This document shows positions 2,678 to 61,214 of a stretch of 64,000 nt of DNA, in pieces. How positions within the stretch are numbered: the stretch's first letter is position 1; every line of letters starts with the position of its first letter. A model generated the notes under the pieces. It was not told the origin of the DNA. It saw only the letters and a program-made list of their open reading frames with translations, and did no database searches. Source of the stretch: Candidatus Latescibacterota bacterium (GTDB lineage Bacteria; Latescibacterota; UBA2968; UBA8231); NCBI GenBank assembly GCA_965206595.1, contig OZ242214.1:1216001-1280000 (forward strand). The letters are read 5' to 3'. Made by a program: the position numbers and the translations under genes.

Positions 2678-5407
2678 ATGGCAATGGTGAGACGATTCGC
2701 CGTGAGTGGTTCCCTTCTGCTGGCGTTGACGGTCGGCGCCCACGGCCAGGACGGACACGACATCCGCGCCAATCAGGTCGTCATCTCCGATGAGGAGCAC
2801 TGGCAGCAATGGCGCTTCCCCGAGGGCACGGTGGACGTGCTCCCGGCAGGCGCAGTGGGGCCTCATTTCTGGAGCAAGGGGACGAGCGTCGCCACAGAGC
2901 ACGATATTGTGCAGAACCTTCGCAGGAATCCGCCCGAGTACCTCTCCAGGAAGGCGCCGGAGGAGTTCGAGCTCCTCGACGCCATCGATGCGGGGTCGAA
3001 TCACCGCGCAACGGCGAATCTCTTCGACGGCGACCCGAGCACCTACTGGGAGCCCTCCTTTCCCGATGACGAGACCATCGATCCGGCATCTCAGGCGTGG
3101 TTTACCGTCGATCTGGGCAAGATCGTCATGGCCGAGAAGATCGTGCTCAAGTTCGTGGACGAGGATCTGGGTGACCCCTTCCTTCTATTCGATGTTTTGA
3201 CGTCGGACGGACAGACGCCCACAGCAGCGCAAGGCGCCGAGAGCCTGGAGTTCGCGCGCGTGCACACGACCCTCGAGCCGAACAAGAGCCAGCGCCAGTT
3301 CGAGATCGATATGTCCCAGTTCAGACGCGTCGACACGGTGGAGAGATGGTGGGCCTTCGAGACCTTTGCAGAGCAACAGGGCTGGCACCCCTCGTTTGCT
3401 GAGGTGACACAGGATCCGGAAGTGCGCAAACGCCTGGTTCGCCACGTGCAGGTCGTCGTTTACGGAAGCGCCTTCAGGCGGGGCCGCCAGGTGAGCGAGG
3501 CGATCTACGATTCGGTGCGGGTGAATGCGCCCCGGGATACGGGGATGGTAGAGTACGTGAAGAAGCTCCTACCGAGTGGAGAGCGGGCGGTCTCGAAGGA
3601 CGTGTGGGAGGAGTTGCCGTCTCACCGGCAGGGACCGGTTCGATACTGGCTCCGCGAACGTCCCAGGCTGGCGGAGCTGGAGGTCTGGTCCAAGGGGGAC
3701 GACATCTTCGAGGGCTTCGCGAGAAGATGCCAGGAGCCGCCGTGCCTGACGTGGACGCTTCCCAATGTGCTCAAACCGCCGGCCACGCTCATCGACGGCG
3801 ATCTGTCGAGTCATCAGAACCTCTCCCTTTATATCGGCCAGACCCCTGATTGGTACAACATGCGTGTCGATCTGGGCTCTCTGTTCTGGGTCGACGGCTA
3901 CCGCCACATGATTCAGTTCCGGGGAACGCCGCACGCCCGCACCCTGCCGGAGTGGGGGCTCGACTTCTCCGACGGCACCCGCGAAGTGGACGGCAGTCTG
4001 AAATGGGACAGGAAGCTCTTCGACGAGACGCCTTTCACGCGATCGCGCATCATCGCCCTCGACGAGGTCGACTTCGAGCCGATCAAGGCCCGTTACATGA
4101 GACTGGAATGGCTCATGCACCCGGAGGGCACGGCGGCTCTCACCGTCAACCTGGCGGAGGTCCAGGTCTTCGGGGAGGGCTACCAACCCGAGGTGACACT
4201 TACTTCTGACCTCATCCGGCTGAGAGGGAACCGCAACCTCTTTGCCATCGAGTGGGATGCCGACACACCCCTTGGCACCGAGGTGGCCCTGCAGACGCGG
4301 ACGGGCGCCAGGCTCGATACGGTGTTCCACTACTTCCGCATCGTCGGCGAAGACACCCTCGAGATCGTCAGGGAGACCGAGGAGGAGGCCAAGAAGGCGT
4401 ACGACAAACTCCGGCTCGGAAAAGGGCCGATCGTGCCCGAGCTGGTCGCCGCCGGTGACTGGGAGCCGTGGAGCGAGCCGTACACCGATCCGGAGGGAAG
4501 CGCCATCACCTCGCCCTCGCCGCGGGAGTACCTGCTCGTCAGGGCGACCCTGCGGTCAGACGATCCCCATACTCGAGCTACGCTCAAGAGCATCCGTCTC
4601 AGCTTCGACAGTCCGGTGGCCCGACGGCTGGTCGGCGAGCTGACACCGGGATTGGTCGAGCTCATGGGAGAGGCCCGACCCTACATTCTCGAGGTAGCGG
4701 TCGACAACCTGACAGCCGGATTCGACGAGCTTCTCGTGAGGCCGCCGGCGGGGATGCAGCTCACCTACGGGACGCTCTACGCCGGCGAGGAGCCGGAGCT
4801 GGCCGAGGCGGCCGATATGAGCGGGCTCGCCCTGTCCGGTGTCGAGACGCTGGCCGAAGGGGACAGTCTCCATCTCAGCTTCCCCGCCATCGAGCGCTCC
4901 GACGACGTGGAGAAGATCAGGCTGGAGTTCACCGGCACTCTGTTCTCGGCCGGCGGGCGCCTGCATGCCAGCCTGCGCCGCAGCGAAAGCGGACAGGGGG
5001 CCTGGCAGCGGGTAGACGAGAAGGTTCCCCGCTCCTCTCTCATGGTACTGGCTACGACGCAGAGTAACGATCTGTTCAAGGACTTGACGATCGATCCGCC
5101 GGTCCTGACGCCGAATGGGGACGGCGTGAATGAAGAATTGACCCTGGCCTTCACCGTCCTGCTGGCTGCTCCCAACACGGCGGTCAAAGCGGAGATCTTT
5201 GATCTGAGCGGGCGGCTTGTGGCTCGCCGCGTCGAGGTGCGCGAGGTGAGCGCAGGGCCTCTCGAGATCACCTGGGATGGACGTGACCAGCAGGGAGCAC
5301 TCGTGCCGCCCGGGGTGTATGCCGTGAGGCTCGGCGTCGATGGTGACACCGGTGATACCGCGCTGACCAGCCTGGAGCTCCTGCGCACCATCGCCGTGGC
5401 CTACTGA
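2678..5407 (+). CDS. Large secreted protein, discoidin-like segment plus C-terminal FlgD-Ig domain (paralogue of upstream gene)
   Basis: RBS aggag, signal peptide, NLFDGDPSTYW...WFTVDLG, and LTPNGDGVNE...WDGRDQQGALVPPGVY. Confidence 0.8.
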   Translation: MAMVRRFAVSGSLLLALTVGAHGQDGHDIRANQVVISDEEHWQQWRFPEGTVDVLPAGAVGPHFWSKGTSVATEHDIVQNLRRNPPEYLSRKAPEEFELLDAIDAGSNHRATANLFDGDPSTYWEPSFPDDETIDPASQAWFTVDLGKIVMAEKIVLKFVDEDLGDPFLLFDVLTSDGQTPTAAQGAESLEFARVHTTLEPNKSQRQFEIDMSQFRRVDTVERWWAFETFAEQQGWHPSFAEVTQDPEVRKRLVRHVQVVVYGSAFRRGRQVSEAIYDSVRVNAPRDTGMVEYVKKLLPSGERAVSKDVWEELPSHRQGPVRYWLRERPRLAELEVWSKGDDIFEGFARRCQEPPCLTWTLPNVLKPPATLIDGDLSSHQNLSLYIGQTPDWYNMRVDLGSLFWVDGYRHMIQFRGTPHARTLPEWGLDFSDGTREVDGSLKWDRKLFDETPFTRSRIIALDEVDFEPIKARYMRLEWLMHPEGTAALTVNLAEVQVFGEGYQPEVTLTSDLIRLRGNRNLFAIEWDADTPLGTEVALQTRTGARLDTVFHYFRIVGEDTLEIVRETEEEAKKAYDKLRLGKGPIVPELVAAGDWEPWSEPYTDPEGSAITSPSPREYLLVRATLRSDDPHTRATLKSIRLSFDSPVARRLVGELTPGLVELMGEARPYILEVAVDNLTAGFDELLVRPPAGMQLTYGTLYAGEEPELAEAADMSGLALSGVETLAEGDSLHLSFPAIERSDDVEKIRLEFTGTLFSAGGRLHASLRRSESGQGAWQRVDEKVPRSSLMVLATTQSNDLFKDLTIDPPVLTPNGDGVNEELTLAFTVLLAAPNTAVKAEIFDLSGRLVARRVEVREVSAGPLEITWDGRDQQGALVPPGVYAVRLGVDGDTGDTALTSLELLRTIAVAY

Positions 5408-29924: not shown

Positions 29925-30388
29925 TCCCGATCGCGGGCAAATATCTGTTCTCCGTTTAGTTGAGGATAGGGGTGTAGGGACGATTGTTTTTAAGGACGCT
30001 GAAGACAACGTGGAGCATCTTGTTGGCGACGTGGGTGAGGGCGACGAGGTGATGCTTGCCGCGGTCGATTTGCCGTTGATAGACCTGGACAAACAGCGGA
30101 TCATGGCTTTTGAAGACGGCGATCTCCGAGGCCTGCATGACGGCGGTGCGCAGATAGCGACTGCCGCGCTTGGACATCCTGCCGCAGCCGACCTGATCGC
30201 CGCTGTCGATCTGCTTGACGTCGATACCGGCGGGGGACTGTCCCGTTTCGGTGAGCCGTTGACGCAGCAGTTCAACCCCTTCGCGAGAGTGCTGCACGGC
30301 GAGATTTCGGAAGACGGTCTGCCCGTCCTGACCCAACAACGTGGCGCGATGACTTCGTTTCGCCACATCGATACCGAGAGTCCACATT

Positions 30389-37115: not shown

Positions 37116-37148
37116 TAAACACCTCTGAGTTCACCCTCATCGATGTCG
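37116..37148. repeat. 33-bp direct repeat, copy 1
   Basis: taaacacctctgagttcaccctcatcgatgtcg, identical at 38798-38830. Confidence 0.9.
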
Positions 37149-37290: not shown

Positions 37291-38766
37291 CTACAGTCCC
37301 AGCCTTTCGTACTGTTCCACCGGCGCGTCGCACTCCTCCATCAAGGTGCGCAACAAACCGGTCATCCGCTCCTCTGCCTCCGCATCCTCTAGCGGCTGTT
37401 GCTGCCAGGGATCGCTGTGGAGATCGAAGAGCAGGTTCTCGAAGCTGAACCGCGGTGACTCCCACTGGCCGCTCGTGCGCATGAGCGAACACCCCTTGGT
37501 GAATGAGAACGGCTCGGCCAACTTCAGGCCGGCGAACTCTTCTACCGGAAACATGTCGTGCATATTCGTGGGCATCAACGTGTACTCGTGCAGCGGCCCG
37601 TTGTCCGCCGTCGCGGCGGCGCGCATGTACACGTATCGTCCGTCGGTGACGTTCACGTGGCCGCCGTGGATTCCGAAGATCCCCGCCTCCCTCACCGGCC
37701 GGTCCTCGGCAATCGCATAGCGCAGTGGCACGCCGAGCATGTCCGGCGTCAGCTCCAGGCCGAACAGGTCGAGTAGCGTCGGCCCCAGGTCGATCGATGG
37801 TTGCACGAGTGCCGAGCGCCGCTCGTTGCCGGCGCCACAGCGCGGGTCCCAGATGAAAAACGGCGTGTTCCCCGTCTCGCGGTACCAGGGCATCGACACC
37901 TTGGCCCACAGGTCGTGCTCTCCAAGCAGGAACCCGTGATCGGTCCAGACGATGAGCATAGTGTCCTCCCACATCTCCAGACGATCCATCTCGTCGAGCA
38001 CGTCGCCGAGCCGGGCATCACACATGCTGAGAAGCGCCGCGTAGTGCCCGCGGCACTGCTGTACGAGGTCTTCCGATTCTGTCACCTGTCCGTAAATGGG
38101 CCAGTCGAGCAGCGGCGCCGAGCGCTCTTTGATCAGCTCGGGGTAGAGGTCCTGGTAGTGTCGTTGGGTGAAGAACGGCTCGTGCGGATCGAAGGTCTCG
38201 ATCTGCAGGAACCAGTTGTCTTCCTCATGGTTGCGGCGCAGGAAGTCCAGGCCGGCTTCGAAGGTCTTTGACTGCGGCTGCTCCTTCTCGCTGCGCATGA
38301 AGGCGCGGTTCACCCGGTCCTGATTGTTCCATTGGCTTTTCCCTGAATTCTGGCCGGCGCTGCTGACCGGCGGCGCCTCGGCGACCTGGCCCATCCATGG
38401 GTCTCCTTCCTGGCCGCGGTGGAACTGCCATGTAGTGTACTGCGTGTGGTAGGTTGCACCCCCGGTTCCCCAGTAGTGGAGGTGGTCGCTGATCAGGTGC
38501 GAGGAGACGCCCTGCTCTCTCAGCATCCTCGGTACCGAATCGTCGAATGGCTCGAGCGGCCCCCACGACCGGTGCAGGAAGTTCGGCCGACCCGTGTGCA
38601 GGTCGCGACGCGCCGGCATGCATGGCATCGAGCAGATGTAGCTCTTGTCGAAGATGACCGTGCGCTCTGCCAATTGCTGGAAGTTCGGCGCATGCGTCCA
38701 GTCGCAGCCATAGGGCGGCAGCATGTGCCGGTTGAGCGAGTCGAACATCACCATCACTGCTCTCAT
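37291..38766 (-). CDS. Formylglycine-dependent sulfatase
   Basis: MFDSLNR, CMPARRDLHTG, DPHEPF, TDHG, LFDLHSDP. RBS aggag. Confidence 0.92.
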   Translation of the reverse strand: MRAVMVMFDSLNRHMLPPYGCDWTHAPNFQQLAERTVIFDKSYICSMPCMPARRDLHTGRPNFLHRSWGPLEPFDDSVPRMLREQGVSSHLISDHLHYWGTGGATYHTQYTTWQFHRGQEGDPWMGQVAEAPPVSSAGQNSGKSQWNNQDRVNRAFMRSEKEQPQSKTFEAGLDFLRRNHEEDNWFLQIETFDPHEPFFTQRHYQDLYPELIKERSAPLLDWPIYGQVTESEDLVQQCRGHYAALLSMCDARLGDVLDEMDRLEMWEDTMLIVWTDHGFLLGEHDLWAKVSMPWYRETGNTPFFIWDPRCGAGNERRSALVQPSIDLGPTLLDLFGLELTPDMLGVPLRYAIAEDRPVREAGIFGIHGGHVNVTDGRYVYMRAAATADNGPLHEYTLMPTNMHDMFPVEEFAGLKLAEPFSFTKGCSLMRTSGQWESPRFSFENLLFDLHSDPWQQQPLEDAEAEERMTGLLRTLMEECDAPVEQYERLGL

Positions 38767-38797: not shown

Positions 38798-38830
38798 TAA
38801 ACACCTCTGAGTTCACCCTCATCGATGTCG
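38798..38830. repeat. 33-bp direct repeat, copy 2
   Basis: Identical to 37116-37148. Confidence 0.9.
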
Positions 38831-38959
38831 TGAGGCGGATTTCAACTCGATCCTCATCCTTGGCGACGCAGCGACCGCGCGGCAATGCCAGGTGAGGTAT
38901 TTCTGCGACAGGACACTGATATGTATTGACCCTTGTCAACCCCTCCGAGGTGGATTTTT

Positions 38960-39205
38960 CGGTAGTTACCTTTGCCTTGGTTTTTTGCCGGGAACAGAAG
39001 GGACGACTTTGGCGACGGTTGATCCGACTGATATTCGCGGGTTGGGTACCGCCTGTCCTGGGTTCGTCGCGGAGCCAGCCTCAGTCTAGTGTCGAGGGTC
39101 ACCCCATAGGGCGCCTCATAGTGTCTTCGAGGGTTCTCCTAACCAGTCCCTTCTGTCCCGGTCCGTTCACATGAGCAATCCCACTCCGTTGCCTGAAACC
39201 TCGCT
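38960..39205 (-). ncRNA. Putative bridge/seek RNA of element C
   Basis: Two internal-loop hairpins carrying AAGACACUA and CUAG (target) and AUAUCAG (donor). Confidence 0.7.
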
Positions 39206-39209
39206 CCTG

Positions 39210-40340
39210 TTAGGCGGCCTTTCTGACTGTGCTGCCCGGTTGTTTGAGCTCCCAGGCGATGGCCCAGATGAAACCCAACAGGTCGCGCGCAACGGCGGTG
39301 CAGACCTTGTTCTTCGGCATCCCTCGCGCCGTCAACCGGCGGGATAGCGTCCACACAGTCGTTTCTGCGCCTTCCAGGCGATCGCCTGTACCGCCGGGGT
39401 CGTCTGCTCGGCTCGCCGCTGCAGGTGCGCGGTCTTGCGGGCCGGAAACCGATTAGCTCCAAGCCGCTTCGGCCAGCACCCGCCGCACGTGGGCATTGCC
39501 CGCCTTGGTAATCGCACCCCGCTGCCGGCGACGGCCGCTGGAATGCTCGCTGGGCACCAGACCGACGAAGGCCATCAGCTGGCGCGGCGAATCAAAGCGG
39601 GTGAGGTCCCCCAGTTCCGCCAAGGTCGTGATCGCGGTCAGCGTGTTCACCCCGCGCAGCGCCATGATGGCGCGGGTCTCGGCTTCCCGCGACCAGCCCG
39701 ACAGGGTGCGCTGCAATTCCTCGTCCAGCCCCTTGACGCGAGCCTGGGCTTGGCGCACCGCGTCGACGTATTCCTCAAAGACGATCTGCTGGGCCGGAGG
39801 ATCGAAGCGCTGCCTCTCGAGCCAGCGAAAGTGGCTCTGCGTCCAGCGACCGCGACCCGAGTAGATGCGACCGTGGCGCTGCAAGAAGCTGGTCAGCCGT
39901 TGGCGCACGCGGCGCTCGGCATGCTTGAAGTCTTCCCGGCAGCGCTCCAGATCGCGCATCGCCTCCTGCTCCGGGTCAGGCACCCACACCACGGTCAGCT
40001 CGCCGTGTCGGTGCAGCCGCGCCAGCGTCATCGCATCCCGCCGATCGGTCTTGATGCGGTCGCCCGGACGCCGCGGAATCAGCGACGGCGCCACCACCAT
40101 GCACGCGTGACCCAACGCGGTCAGCAGCCGGTAGACGCCGTAGCCGCAGGGGCCGGCTTCGTAGCAAAACCGCAACTGCGTCGATGCATCGGCCAACGTG
40201 CCCGCCAGCTTGGCCACCGCTTCGCCCGTGGAGGCGATGGTACCGTACAGCCTCGGCTCGGTCCGATACGGATCGGCAATGGCGACGGTGATGGAATCCC
40301 GGTGTATGTCCAACGCTACCACTTTCGTAGGTTTACGCAT
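39210..40340 (-). pseudogene. IS110-family transposase, frameshifted near the C-terminus
   Basis: ALDIHRD, CYEAGPCG, KTDRRDA, GLVPSEHSSG, ITKAGNAHVR. Indels near 39454 and 39340. Confidence 0.88.
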
Positions 40341-40456
40341 GGCCTCCTCCTTCTCGCTGGGGATAGGTCTTTGGGTGAACTGCATTTGTCCAAAGATAAC
40401 CCCCGAAAATCGAGACTGGAGGAGGTCTTCATATACGCGTCAATACATAAGGTCTA

Positions 40457-41704
40457 GTGGTTCAACTAGGTAGCAGTGCGAGGTAGAGTCGCTTGAGTTT
40501 AATGCGTGCATCCGCGGTGGTGAACCGCCAGTTGATGACGGGCGGGTCTTCGAGGCGCTCCGTGAGCCAGGCTTTCACGTGTTTTCCTAACTGCTGGATC
40601 GTCGCGATGCGACGATTGAGGCACTGCCGAAAGAGCACGTTCAGTCCGATCTCGGCCATGTTGAGCCAGCTGCCGTGTGTAGGGGTGTAGTGAATGTCGA
40701 GTTTGTCAGCGATGCGCTTGGCTTCGTCCGGTTCGAAGACCTCGTAAAGGGCCGCCTTCTTATGGGTGCTCAAGTTGTCGATCACCAGCGTGATCTTCTC
40801 GGCCTCAGGGTAATGGACATCGACGAGATCCCTGACGGTGTGAGCCCAGTCCCTCATCGTGCGCTGTTCACTCACTCGGACGTGGCAGCGACCCGTGAGG
40901 GGCTCCAGCATCATGAAGACGTTGGCAACCCCGTTGCGGACGTATTCATGGTGATACCGCGCCGGACACCCCGGCGCCACCGGCAAGGGCTGCTGCGTTT
41001 CGCCGATCAACTGCTTGCAGGTCTCATCCAAGCAAATCAGCGGATGGCTCGGGTCGTACGGCCGTTGATAGATCTCCAACACGTCCTCCATCGCGCAGAC
41101 GAACTCGGCACTGGGTTTGCCCGGCAGGCACCACATCTCCCGCTGCCAGGGCTTCAGTTCTTTTTTTTAGCGTTTGGCGGACCGTTTCCGGGCTGACGCT
41201 GTCAACCAGCTCCAAGGTCACGAGGCGGTCTGCCAGCAACTTCAGGGTCCAGTGCTTCCTTCCCTCGGGGGGCTCGCCGCAGGCCAGAGCCACCAGATGG
41301 GCTTCGGCTCTGCCGTCGATCTTCTTCGCTTTCCGATTCTTCTGCTCTTTGCGCTGCAGCGACGCCTCGAAGCCCTCTTCCACGAACCGCTTGCGCAGAC
41401 GCTCCACTGTGCTCGGATGCACGTCGAGCGCGCGTTCGATCTGCTCATCGGTCCAGTGCTCACCATGCGGACCCTGGTCCGTCTTCAACAGGATCCTGGC
41501 ATGCCGTTGTTTGTAGGCCGCCGCCTTCCCCTTCGAGATCAAATCGCGCAGATGAGCTCGCTCCTCCGCTGTGAGCGTGACAATGTACTTTTTCTTGGGC
41601 CACGTCGATCTCCTCTCCTGACAAAGGGGCCTCAGGAGAAGGATACGATCCCCGGCCTCAAAACGCTAGTTCCAATATCCATCAATCCTAACTGGATGAA
41701 CCAC
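40457..41704 (-). mobile_element. IS630-family insertion sequence (two ORFs joined at an A8 run, 41161-41168)
   Basis: TIRs gtggttca, TA duplication at 40455-40456 and 41705-41706. HTH ORF, plus a DDE ORF at 40462-41136 (LDE, DNLSTH, SWLNMAE). Confidence 0.93.
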
Positions 41705-60914: not shown

Positions 60915-60924
60915 CCCGTATCCT

Positions 60925-61214
60925 TAGTGTCCTGTCCCGGAAGTAGATTGCCGGAATTCGGCCGCCGAGGCACCCGGCTCGAAAGGCTCCTGAGCGAGTC
61001 GTACCGAGGGTGTACGGGGAGCGAAGGCAACGCAGCGAGCGGGAATCGATCGGCTGCCGAATGGCATGGAATTGAAGGGATAGGACATTAGTTCAGATTT
61101 TACGGATACTTACAACACCTGCGACAAAGGTATACAGGGGGCCTGTGGGCCGCAATGCAGCCGCGGGAGGGAATTCGTCGCGTAGACCAGGGACTATTTC
61201 GGGACACGGCAATA
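60925..61214. mobile_element. Possible MITE (290 bp, imperfect TIRs, TA-bounded)
   Basis: tagtgtcctgtcccggaagtag versus the reverse complement of the right end, tattgccgtgtcccgaaatag (about 17/22). A related TIR lies at 38898-38917. Confidence 0.45.

What the first reader, a model, noticed from the sequence alone, without database searches (positions are those of the whole stretch)
38895..40457. Second, unrelated IS110 (IS1111 layout) with a 3' bridge RNA aimed at the tip of a MITE-like terminal repeat
Seen in sequence: after removing the IS630, the plus-strand target is AGGACA-CT-AGGAG and the donor junction is ATAAGGT-CT-GATAT. The 3' non-coding RNA has a cctc/gagg-closed loop containing AAGACACUA (39119-39127; 8/9 to AGGACACTA) and CUAG (39086-39089). 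A second loop contains AUAUCAG (39028-39034; 7/7 complementary to CTGATAT). The left donor guide matches only weakly (agg). The flank (reverse complement agtgtcctgtcgcagaaata) is 17/20 identical to the repeat end at 60926-60945. Inference: two independent RNA-guided elements in one island both home to the ends of other mobile DNA.
Basis: partly seen in the sequence, partly recalled or inferred. Interest (0 to 1): 0.72.

Follow-up and report, generated by a model that had tools for sequence, protein, structure and literature searches.

The report
RNA-guided IS homing to transposon tips
This is a broken copy of an IS1111-type jumping gene whose own guide RNA matches the outermost tip of another transposon's end repeat; it is a new target for a mechanism that is already known.

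Summary
Window 38918-40453 (minus strand) is an IS1111-type IS110-family element. It has 11-bp subterminal inverted repeats, a CT core at both junctions, a DEDD transposase gene and a 292-nt 3' non-coding region. That region folds into a two-loop bridge/seekRNA.

The first target-loop segment, AAGACACUA, is complementary to T-AG-TGTC at the flank. The second, GACACUAG, repeats the CTAG side. AUAUCAG repeats the element's right end plus core. Across 52 homologous loci the first guide tracks its own flank (4.3 of 6 variable positions, against 1.7 when permuted; 0 of 10,000 permutations reach it).

The flank is the tip of IS630-family terminal repeats, which are always bounded by CTAG. Seven close relatives in other genomes sit at similar tips (five of them at 121- or 166-bp MITEs), each with a different opposite flank.

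Three caveats apply:
- This copy is a relic. Two insertions break the transposase frame, and contigs from four studies show the same indels.
- It is the only copy in the genome, while 63 unoccupied tips remain.
- The flank here is a solo 21-nt tip, not a whole MITE.

Homing of IS1111 relatives to transposon repeats and MITEs is in print, so this is a new member of a known kind.

The parts
38899..38917 (+). Tip of an IS630-type terminal inverted repeat (ATTTCTGCGACAGGACACT). With the AG beyond the insertion it is a 21-nt exact match to the repeat of an IS630 copy at genome position 783481. It is the right-hand target half recognised by the first guide.
   Evidence: the body behind it has no likeness to MITE bodies
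38916..38917 (.). Core dinucleotide CT (AG on the transposase strand), the copy at the right-end junction.
   Evidence: AG at both junctions in 54 of 56 loci with paired ends; two loci read AA at the right-end junction
38918..40453 (-). Body of the IS1111-type IS110-family element (1,536 bp without the core).
   Evidence: 81% nucleotide identity over its whole length to L007 and L035, ending at these borders
38920..38930 (-). Right-end subterminal inverted repeat (GTCAATACATA on the transposase strand), followed by the 2-nt extension TC.
38990..39162 (-). Bridge/seekRNA gene including the outer closing stem. The core that the covariance model matches is 39012-39139.
   Evidence: (127.9 bits, the only hit in the genome)
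39119..39127 (-). Target loop, 5' segment AAGACACUA. It is complementary to the transposase-strand target T-AG-TGTC(c)T.
39086..39093 (-). Target loop, 3' segment GACACUAG. It has the same sense as the left flank plus core (..CT-AG), so it pairs with the other strand.
39053..39060 (-). Donor loop, 5' segment CAGGACAG. It is only a weak complement of C-AG-ACCTT at the left end (5 of 9 over the 9-nt segment compared).
39028..39034 (-). Donor loop, 3' segment AUAUCAG, which equals the right end ATATC plus the core AG.
   Evidence: L016 changes on both sides: ATAACAG with right end CATAAC
39210..40340 (-). Transposase gene, broken. Start ATG at 40340. The frame is open for 295 codons to a stop at 39453-55. 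Extra bases near 39454 (+1) and 39343 (+2) shift the frame out and back. The last piece is 39210-39344.
   Evidence: the same indels appear in contigs of four runs
40439..40449 (-). Left-end subterminal inverted repeat (TATGTATTGAC on the transposase strand), preceded by the extension ACCT.
40454..40455 (.). Core CT, the copy at the left-end junction. Its T is shared with the TA duplication of the IS630.
40457..41704 (-). IS630-family element inserted into the CTAG at the IS110 left end. TA copies lie at 40455-56 and 41705-06. It has two overlapping ORFs.
60924..61092 (+). Degenerate copy of the 166-bp MITE family that carries the relatives' insertions.
   Evidence: local alignment score 85 against the L007/L008 MITE

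Best explanation
Window 38918-40453 (minus strand) is one copy of an IS1111-type member of the IS110 family, an insertion sequence moved by an RNA-guided DEDD recombinase.

Anatomy, shown here:
- 11-bp subterminal inverted repeats.
- The same dinucleotide at both junctions (CT on the plus strand, AG on the transposase strand).
- A 113-nt left end, a transposase gene, and a 292-nt 3' non-coding region.
- That region encodes a structured RNA of about 170 nt with two stem-enclosed internal loops.

In the first loop, the 5' segment AAGACACUA is complementary to T-AG-TGTC on the right of the insertion point. The 3' segment GACACUAG repeats CT-AG on the left, so the two segments read opposite strands and overlap at the core. 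In the second loop, AUAUCAG repeats the element's right end plus core, and a weaker 5' segment faces the left end.

Inferred by analogy with IS621, ISEc11 and ISPa11: the element excises as a circle joined at the core. The RNA holds that joint in one loop and the target in the other. The recombinase then exchanges strands at the core.

The sequence CTAG+TGTC is the outer tip of terminal inverted repeats of IS630-family elements and their MITEs, which always insert into CTAG. The guide therefore sends the element to the ends of other transposons, whatever host DNA lies beyond them.

This particular copy is a relic. Two small insertions break the transposase frame, it is the only copy in the genome, and no other RNA of this type exists there. 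It is flanked on one side by a solo 21-nt repeat tip and on the other by an IS630.
For: Family membership:
- PF01548 58.5 bits and PF02371 78 bits.
- NF033542 228.5 bits against a cut-off of 140.
- The GLVPSEHSSG motif is present.

Borders:
- Homology to L007/L035 runs exactly between the conserved ends ACCTTATGTATTGAC and GTCAATACATATC.
- These ends, with AG at the junctions, recur in 56 of 81 loci examined. Two of the 56 read AA at the right-end junction.

RNA:
- RNAalifold predicts 28 pairs, 9 of them with compensatory changes.
- On my structure for 29 sequences, 91.6% of cells pair, against 31-52% when partners are slid. Eleven pairs change on both sides.
- Covariance model R1 hits 77 of 81 sources, always 3' of the transposase gene. 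It hits once in the window's own genome, at 39012-39139 with 127.9 bits.

Guides:
- In 52 loci the six variable guide positions match their own flank 4.33 of 6. For the 32 distinct guides the value is 4.19, against a permuted mean of 1.67, and 0 of 10,000 permutations reach it.
- Flank positions 1-4 match in 81-94% of loci.
- The second segment matches the left flank at position -1 in 100% and at -2 in 90% of loci.
- Compensatory examples: L039 GACUCCUA with flank TAGGAGTC, against L011 GGCUCCUA with TAGGAGCC; L013 has CUG with flank C-AG.

Target:
- Seven further insertions sit at TGT-type repeat tips with different opposite flanks: L007, L008, L035, L105, L094, L095 and L099. Five of these are at complete 121- or 166-bp MITEs.
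- The owners of the repeats are IS630 family: DDE_3 and NF033545 at 270 bits.
- CTAGTGTC occurs 84 times in the genome, and 63 of these are followed by repeat-like sequence.

Relic status:
- Insertions of +1 and +2 nt relative to the intact 379-aa L007 gene.
- Contigs of four runs from four studies span both sites without any indel difference.
Against: - No expression, circle junction or empty site was seen. No sigma-70-like promoter lies inside the element, and no contig bridges an empty site.
- The guide is imperfect: position 5 of the flank mismatches here, and positions 5 and 6 mismatch in L007. The donor 5' segment matches only 5 of 9.
- The DNA behind the 21-nt tip in this window has no likeness to any MITE body (score 9-12, the same as shuffles), so 'MITE' is not shown for this site.
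- L106 carries the same guide but an unrelated flank; that copy is rearranged.
- No Rfam family matched at gathering threshold.
- Homologous transposases are 374-388 aa, longer than the 330-350 aa quoted for IS1111-family transposases (PMC11187229, section 6).
Confidence: 0.9

Rival explanations
1. Same element and mechanism, but a different order of events. The IS630 at 40457-41704 was already lying next to the repeat tip, sharing its CTAG. The IS110 then inserted between two abutting transposon ends, so the real target was ..GAACCA-CT-AG-TGTCC.., a near-palindrome.
For: - The second guide segment GACACUAG matches the IS630 side for 6 contiguous bases (CACTAG). It matches the host side CTCTCCTAG for only 4.
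- Both guide segments carry GACACUA, which would suit a palindrome GACACTAGTGTC.
- IS630 copies do abut head to head in this genome, at position 4097467.
Against: - Family-wide, flank positions -3 and -4 match the guide in only about 40% of loci, against 25% by chance, so two extra matches weigh little.
- IS110 insertion recreates CTAG at its left end, which is exactly what an IS630 needs, so the reverse order fits equally well.
- None of the three L007-type copies (L007, L008, L035) has a transposon end on that side.
- The perfect palindromic site at 4097467 is unoccupied.
Confidence: 0.4
2. The copy is still functional. The two frame changes are bypassed, or the 295-residue product suffices, so the element is an active transposon and not a relic.
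For: - The two insertions add three bases in total, and the stretch between them still encodes the conserved peptide in its own frame.
- The RNA scores as high as in intact copies: 127.9 bits against 127.5 for L007.
- The truncated product keeps both Pfam domains up to the SG motif.
Against: - A stop follows the first insertion immediately.
- There is no slippery run at either site.
- It is a single copy, although 63 perfect unoccupied tips exist.
- The same arrangement is fixed in contigs of four studies, with no empty or circular form.
- An orphan left-end fragment elsewhere in the genome shows that the lineage is decaying here.
Confidence: 0.07
3. The repeat-like flank belongs to the element, or travels with it, and was not a pre-existing target. 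On this reading the RNA matches reflect the element's own end.
For: Homology between this copy and L007/L035 runs 19 bases past the core into the flank.
Against: - The same repeat ends 63 sites that have no IS110.
- In L007, L008, L035 and L105 it is one end of a complete 166-bp MITE, found in both orientations.
- Relatives with other guides have other flanks that match those guides.
Confidence: 0.02
4. Site choice is made by the protein or by DNA structure at the palindromic CTAG, and the RNA matches are incidental.
For: - CTAG or TTAG is shared by 47 of 52 loci whatever the guide.
- The donor 5' segment is weakly complementary.
Against: - The variable flank positions covary with the guide: 0 of 10,000 permutations reach the observed match.
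- Loci whose flank departs from TAG show the matching change in the RNA (L010, L013, L025, L082).
- Experiments on IS1111-family seekRNAs show reprogramming (PMC11187229, abstract and sections 9-10 passages).
Confidence: 0.03

Closest known systems
IS1111-family elements with a 3' seekRNA or bridge RNA (ISEc11, ISPa11, ISKpn4; Siddiquee et al. 2024, PMC11187229; Durrant et al. 2024, PMC11208160)
   Same: - A DEDD transposase with the GL-P----SG motif, subterminal inverted repeats, and a long non-coding region downstream of the gene.
- An RNA with one segment complementary to the top strand lying 5' of a segment complementary to the bottom strand. The two overlap at the insertion point.
- No promoter inside the element.
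   Different: - The target is the CTAG-bounded tip of IS630-type repeats. The targets those papers name are a REP (ISPa11) and an attC site (ISKpn4).
- The intact relatives' transposases are 374-388 aa, against the 330-350 aa quoted.
- This copy is broken.
IS4321 / IS5075 (Partridge and Hall 2003; seen only as a title in the reference lists of PMC11187229 and PMC11208160; the paper itself is not held)
   Same: These are IS1111-family elements that home to the terminal inverted repeats of other transposons.
   Different: - Their hosts are Tn21-family repeats, and, as I recall it, the site lies inside the 38-bp repeat. Here the core straddles the last base of an IS630-type repeat and its TA duplication.
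- A blastn search with the RNA region found no enterobacterial plasmid among 56 records. Their RNA is therefore not detectably like this one by that test.
IS1111 in QMITE2 (PMC5896051; abstract and passages read)
   Same: An IS1111-family element uses a MITE as its preferred landing site. Twenty of 21 copies there lie in the MITE.
   Different: There the site is a GTAG palindrome (REP) inside the MITE. Here it is the outer tip of the repeat at the CTAG junction, so host DNA forms half of the site.
IS621 bridge recombinase and bridge RNA (PDB 8WT6; PMC11208160, PMC11208158)
   Same: - A two-loop RNA in which one loop reads the target and the other the donor joint, with a CT core.
- Same protein family: E = 7.5e-07 to the IS621 transposase over the C-terminal domain.
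   Different: - In IS621 the RNA lies in the left end, upstream of the gene, and the order of strand matches is reversed.
- The proteins are alike only in residues 215-305 by phmmer.

Membership tests
IS110 family (RNA-guided DEDD transposases) | N-terminal DEDD/RuvC-like domain (PF01548) and C-terminal PF02371 domain | tested here: met
   58.5 bits (cut-off 29) and 78 bits (cut-off 21.3). NF033542 scores 228.5 bits against 140.
IS110 family (RNA-guided DEDD transposases) | Conserved G--P----SG motif carrying the serine | tested here: met
   GLVPSEHSSG is present in the ORF translation. The motif is as quoted in PMC11187229, section 6. The four DEDD residues were not mapped individually.
IS110 family (RNA-guided DEDD transposases) | Intact full-length transposase gene (needed for activity, not for descent) | tested here: not met
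   +1 nt near 39454 and +2 nt near 39343 relative to the 379-aa L007 gene, with a stop at 39453-55. Reproduced in contigs of four runs.
IS1111 group | Subterminal inverted repeats (11-13 bp per PMC11187229; 7-17 bp per PMC11208160) with short asymmetric extensions | tested here: met
   An 11-bp repeat, TATGTATTGAC, at 38920-38930 and 40439-40449. The extensions are ACCT (plus the core) and TC. Counted from a 10-bp repeat with the core on the left, they are 7 and 3, as published.
IS1111 group | Longer non-coding region downstream of the transposase gene | tested here: met
   292 nt downstream (38918-39209) against 113 nt upstream (40341-40453).
IS1111 group | Transposase of 330-350 aa | tested here: not met
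   Intact relatives are 379, 388, 376 and 374 aa (L007, L010, L011, L020). L008 is 339 aa only because of a deletion.
Bridge RNA / seekRNA | Structured RNA with two internal loops closed by stems | tested here: met
   28 pairs. 91.6% of cells pair, against 31-52% when partners are slid, and 11 pairs change on both sides. The RNAalifold result is and the single-sequence fold (z = -1.74, unremarkable on its own).
Bridge RNA / seekRNA | Target-loop segments complementary to both strands around the core, with the top-strand match first in IS1111 types | tested here: met
   The order is as described in PMC11187229, section 9.
Bridge RNA / seekRNA | Donor loop complementary to the joined ends | tested here: inconclusive
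   The 3' segment matches 7 of 7, with a two-sided change in L016. The 5' segment matches only 4-8 of 9 across the family and 5 of 9 here.
Bridge RNA / seekRNA | RNA is made and binds the transposase; changing it redirects insertion | not testable with these tools
Bridge RNA / seekRNA | Match to a curated Rfam family | tested here: not met
   0 matches at gathering threshold in the whole window.
IS630 family / its MITEs (the target's owner) | DDE_3 transposase with HTH domains, terminal inverted repeats, and insertion into CTAG with TA duplication | tested here: met
   DDE_3 at 85.6 bits and NF033545 at 270.3 bits. CTAG lies at nearly all of the 65 repeat ends listed. The CTAG/TA rule for IS630 itself is recalled, not read here.
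IS630 family / its MITEs (the target's owner) | The flank at this site is a complete MITE | tested here: not met
   Only 21 nt match, no inverted partner was found, and the body is no more like a MITE than shuffles are. Complete 166-bp or 121-bp MITEs flank L007, L008, L035, L105 and L094.

The most novel reading that the evidence does not exclude
The whole clade of IS1111-type elements found here, spread over many phyla, may specialise in the outer tips of other DDE transposons and their MITEs.

On this reading the second guide segment and the core are held at the palindrome (C/T)TAG, the footprint that CTAG-inserting transposons leave at both ends. Only the first segment is rewritten to follow one repeat family or another. 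That would make these elements hyperparasites of transposons. They would gain a dispersed, self-renewing and harmless landing site, and they would probably disable the host element's end.

Supporting counts:
- 34 of 52 loci sit at CTAG and 13 at TTAG.
- In 17 of 53 loci the 3' flank is one end of an element with a matching inverted repeat, 14 of them with at most 2 mismatches. Upstream controls gave 2 of 53, both with 3 mismatches.
- The hosts include IS630 types, an IS5-like element (DDE_Tnp_1 with DUF772) and a DDE_5 element.
Probability: 0.45. Interest if true: 0.6.

Novelty: new member of a known kind. Interest (0 to 1): 0.42.

Why it matters
It adds a natural example, with clear covariation, of how an IS1111-type guide RNA is written. 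About eight bases are specified in practice: one left base, the two-base core and four to six right bases on one strand, plus CTAG on the other.

It also shows that such elements can aim at the junction between another transposon's end and host DNA. Half of the site is then constant and half is free. This explains why independent copies in several related genomes sit at the same repeat tip beside unrelated DNA.

For genome annotation, nested IS110 / IS630 / MITE clusters like this one are products of targeting, not of chance.

For tool builders, the 52-locus guide-and-flank table is a small natural specificity map for a group that has been studied less than IS621. The copy in this window is a fossil and has no likely effect on the neighbouring sulfatase and phosphodiesterase genes.

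Tried and rejected
- **PF01548 search of the own genome.** It returned a machine error. I did not repeat it. The parallel PF02371 search gave four loci.
- **The search of earlier findings.** It was closed and I did not try it again.
- **Partridge and Hall 2003 (PMC219399).** It is not held. Statements about IS4321/IS5075 rest on its title in two reference lists and on recall. Supplementary files of PMC11187229 and PMC11208160 (target logos and per-IS bridge RNA predictions) were not opened. They may already list relatives of this clade or CTAG targets.
- **Literature searches.** Searches found no paper that describes IS1111-type elements aimed at IS630 repeats. That is four searches, so it is not proof of absence.
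- **Rfam.** No match.
- **Promoter scan.** No promoter-like site was found inside the element. A TTGACA near the right end could be the -35 of a junction promoter, but I found no convincing -10 across the joint by eye and make no claim.
- **Order of IS630 and IS110 insertion.** Unresolved. The IS630 is single-copy in the genome, so its age cannot be judged.
- **Is the flank a diverged MITE?** Rejected.
- **Are enterobacterial plasmid relatives IS4321/IS5075?** Thousands of such relatives have under 60% protein identity. I did not establish which elements they are. A blastn search with the RNA region found none of them.
- **Read laying.** No contig joined across an empty site or a circle. Several joints in run X7 (for example 38939 to 40301) have short sides of 20-43 letters at 90% likeness, and I take them to come from other organisms or relatives. 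Parts without long contigs prove nothing.
Full report
**What is at the coordinates**

The plus strand reads ...TTTCTGCGACAGGACA-CT|GATATGTATTGAC... at 38900-38930. At 40439-40457 it reads ...GTCAATACATAAGGT-CT|AG (checked by script).

An IS630-family element follows, at 40457-41704. It has HTH domains and a DDE_3 domain, and TA copies at 40455-56 and 41705-06.

On the minus strand, an ORF at 39453-40385 carries PF01548 (58.5 bits) and PF02371 (78 bits). It also scores 228.5 bits on NCBIfam NF033542, 'IS110 family RNA-guided transposase', whose cut-off is 140. The likely start is the ATG at 40340, behind GGAGG.

**The gene is broken**

The closest intact homologue is L007, 379 aa. Against it, this copy has one extra base near 39454, which brings a stop at 39453-55. 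It has two extra bases near 39343, which return the reading to the first frame. The gene then ends at 39210.

Neither site is a long homopolymer. Contigs of four public runs from four studies span both sites with no indel there: X1 record 4, X4 record 9, X6 record 18 and X7 record 26. They also carry the same junctions to the flank and to the IS630. X1 may be the source sample, and the sequencing platform is not on record. I conclude that the breaks are real and fixed.

The element is single-copy in the 7.05-Mb genome. The only other trace is a 79-bp orphan left-end fragment at genome position 6486855-6486933.

**Relatives and borders**

A scan of genome contigs kept 80 loci with 52-82% protein identity. 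Three copies in one MAG labelled Candidatus Latescibacterota (L007, L008, L035) are 81% identical in DNA across the whole element.

The ends ACCTTATGTATTGAC... and ...GTCAATACATATC are conserved family-wide. In 56 of 81 loci examined (80 plus the window) a regex pairs a left and a right end 1.4-1.9 kb apart, with AG outside them. Two of the 56 read AA at the right-end junction. The other 25 loci had no pair, either because their ends are more diverged or because the contig is cut.

The layout fits the IS1111 group as described in PMC11187229 (section 6 and Introduction passages) and PMC11208160 (passages):
- an 11-bp subterminal repeat;
- short asymmetric extensions;
- a 113-nt left end and a 292-nt right end.

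**The RNA**

An alignment of the last 330 nt of seven copies shows a conserved core with two variable boxes. RNAalifold on 25 sequences predicts two adjacent stem-loops, each with an internal loop. The single-sequence fold adds an outer closing stem, GGGACAGAAGGGAC with GUCCCUUCUGUUCCC. Its z-score of -1.74 is unremarkable on its own.

I wrote a 28-pair structure for 29 sequences. On it, 91.6% of cells pair, against 31-52% when partners are slid by one to three columns. Eleven pairs change on both sides. No shuffle out of 500 reaches the observed covariation score. These sequences are related, so the shuffle control overstates the case; the slide control is the fairer one.

Covariance model R1 finds the RNA in 77 of 81 sources, always downstream of the transposase gene. 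The four misses are L009, L024, L040 and L068, at least two of which are cut contigs. In the window's genome R1 finds it once, at 39012-39139 with 127.9 bits.

**Guides**

The 9-nt box after GGAGAACCCUCG is the reverse complement of one left base, the core AG and six right bases of the transposase-strand target. Examples:

| Locus | Guide (as DNA) | Flank |
|---|---|---|
| L011, L012 | GGCTCCTA | TAGGAGCC |
| L039 | GACTCCTA | TAGGAGTC |
| L015 | TGCACGCTA | TAGCGTGCA |
| L013 | ...CTG | C-AG |

I had 56 loci with paired ends. I dropped four before counting: L021 and L028 for short flanks, and L034 and L043 because an anchor was not found. In the remaining 52:
- The six variable positions match their own flank 4.33 of 6.
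- For the 32 distinct guides the mean is 4.19, against a permuted mean of 1.67 and a permuted maximum of 2.44. No permutation out of 10,000 reaches the observed value.
- Flank positions 1-4 match in 81-94% of loci, and positions 5-6 in 37-46%.

The second box, before AGA..GAGGC, has the same sense as the left flank. It matches at position -1 in 100% of loci, at -2 in 90%, and at -3 and -4 in about 40%, against 25% in cross-locus pairs. This is the order reported for IS1111-family seekRNAs: the top-strand match comes first and the two matches overlap (PMC11187229, section 9).

In this window the boxes are AAGACACUA and GACACUAG. The first matches the flank at positions 1-4 and 6 and mismatches at position 5.

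In the donor loop, AUAUCAG equals the right end plus core. L016 changes on both sides: ATAACAG with right end CATAAC. The 5' donor segment is weak everywhere, 4-8 of 9, and 5 of 9 here.

**What the target is**

The 18-mer CTAGTGTCCTGTCGCAGA has 65 hits with up to 3 mismatches in the genome. These include paired ends of about 1,003-bp and 1,172-bp elements. Their 362-aa ORFs are IS630 family: DDE_3 plus HTH, and NF033545 at 270 bits. The hits also include a 167-bp MITE at genome position 3730601-3730768. Nearly all are preceded by CTAG.

The minimal site CTAGTGTC occurs 84 times. Sixty-three occurrences are followed by repeat-like sequence. One of the other 21 lies inside the RNA gene itself. 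That leaves one occupied tip against 63 perfect free ones.

In L007, L008 and L035 the right flank is one end of a complete 166-bp MITE with perfect 18-nt repeats, in either orientation. The left flanks are all different.

A search of the window's own phylum (168 genomes, 12 with a match including the window's own) added more copies:
- L105, at a 166-bp MITE.
- L094, at a 121-bp MITE.
- L095, at a TGT-type tip (flank TGTGCCGTCCC).
- L099, at a TGT-type tip (flank TGTCGTGTCCC), with guide ACGACACUA that matches 9 of 9 if the base before the core is T.

One rearranged copy, L106, has the same guide as this window but an unrelated flank.

In this window, however, only 21 nt match a repeat. They are identical to the IS630 end at genome position 783481. 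The DNA behind them is no more like a MITE body than shuffled sequence is. The site is a solo tip.

**Order of events**

IS110 insertion recreates CTAG at its left end, which an IS630 could then use. Equally, an IS630 lying against the tip would leave a CTAG for the IS110.

The second guide box fits the IS630 side slightly better, with 6 contiguous bases against 4. The family data show that those two extra positions carry little weight. I leave the order open, at about 40% for IS630 first.

**A wider pattern**

Of 52 loci, 34 sit at CTAG, 13 at TTAG and 5 elsewhere. In 17 of 53 loci with enough flank, the reverse complement of the first 18 bases of the target recurs within the 3' flank with at most 4 mismatches. 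Fourteen of these have at most 2 mismatches. In 2 of the 53 loci the same test on an equal length of upstream DNA gave a hit, each with 3 mismatches.

The bounded elements range from 76-294-bp MITE-like units to full elements. One encodes a DDE_Tnp_1 plus DUF772 transposase (L011) and one a DDE_5 transposase (L017). This suggests, but does not prove, that the clade as a whole seeks transposon tips.

**What is already known**

The following are all in print:
- IS1111-group elements with a right-end bridge RNA, predicted in 93% of ISfinder members (PMC11208160, passages).
- Experimentally programmable seekRNAs (PMC11187229; abstract and sections 6, 8, 9 and 13 read).
- IS4321 and IS5075 targeting Tn21-family repeats (title only).
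- IS1111 landing in the MITE QMITE2 (PMC5896051; abstract and passages).

Four literature searches turned up nothing on IS630 repeat tips as a target. I therefore rate this a new member of a known kind. It has a well-supported target, and the local copy is dead.

The other IS110-family ORF of the island (29956-30387, 143 aa) shows no BLASTP likeness to this one. I did not study it further.

Noticed in passing
window 37116-37148 and 38798-38830: A perfect 33-bp direct repeat (AAACACCTCTGAGTTCACCCTCATCGATGTCG..) brackets the sulfatase gene at 37291-38766. Its meaning is unknown (visible).
   Followed up: no
window 40457-41704, around 41160: The IS630 next to the element has its HTH and DDE_3 parts in two overlapping ORFs that meet at a run of eight T (eight A on the coding strand). 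Contigs of three other runs carry one extra base behind 41160 (G or T). This copy therefore differs by one base from relatives, either as a frameshift mutation or at a slippage site. It is single-copy in the genome.
   Followed up: partly
window 29956-30387 (-): A 143-aa ORF joins the start of a DEDD domain to the tail of a Transposase_20 domain (33 bits). It looks like an internally deleted remnant of a different IS110-family element. It has no BLASTP likeness to the element studied.
   Followed up: partly
own genome C1:6486855-6486933 (L002): An orphan 79-bp fragment, 82% identical to the left end of the element (GACCTTATGTATTGCC...GGGGGTTATCTTTGG), with no transposase or RNA nearby. It is a trace of an older copy.
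   Followed up: partly
own genome C1:4097467-4097470 (L091): Two IS630-type elements abut head to head and share one CTAG. This forms GACAGGACACTAGTGTCCTGTC, the ideal palindromic site for both guide segments, yet it is unoccupied.
   Followed up: no
L035:4644-4708: Beyond the far end of the 166-bp MITE that carries the L035 copy lies an inverted fragment of a second copy's RNA region. This suggests that both tips of one MITE were hit.
   Followed up: no
L056:5738-5894 and L072:5447-5607: A second full match to RNA model R1, together with a second right-end motif, lies 1.2-1.5 kb downstream of the element in two gammaproteobacterial loci. These may be orphan or duplicated guide-RNA modules, reminiscent of the extra ssr9 copies described for ISPpu9 (PMC12288879, abstract only).
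   Followed up: no
L008, within 4019-4097: One of the three copies in the Latescibacterota MAG has a 120-bp in-frame deletion in the C-terminal part of the transposase (339 aa against 379 aa). Its RNA is intact.
   Followed up: no
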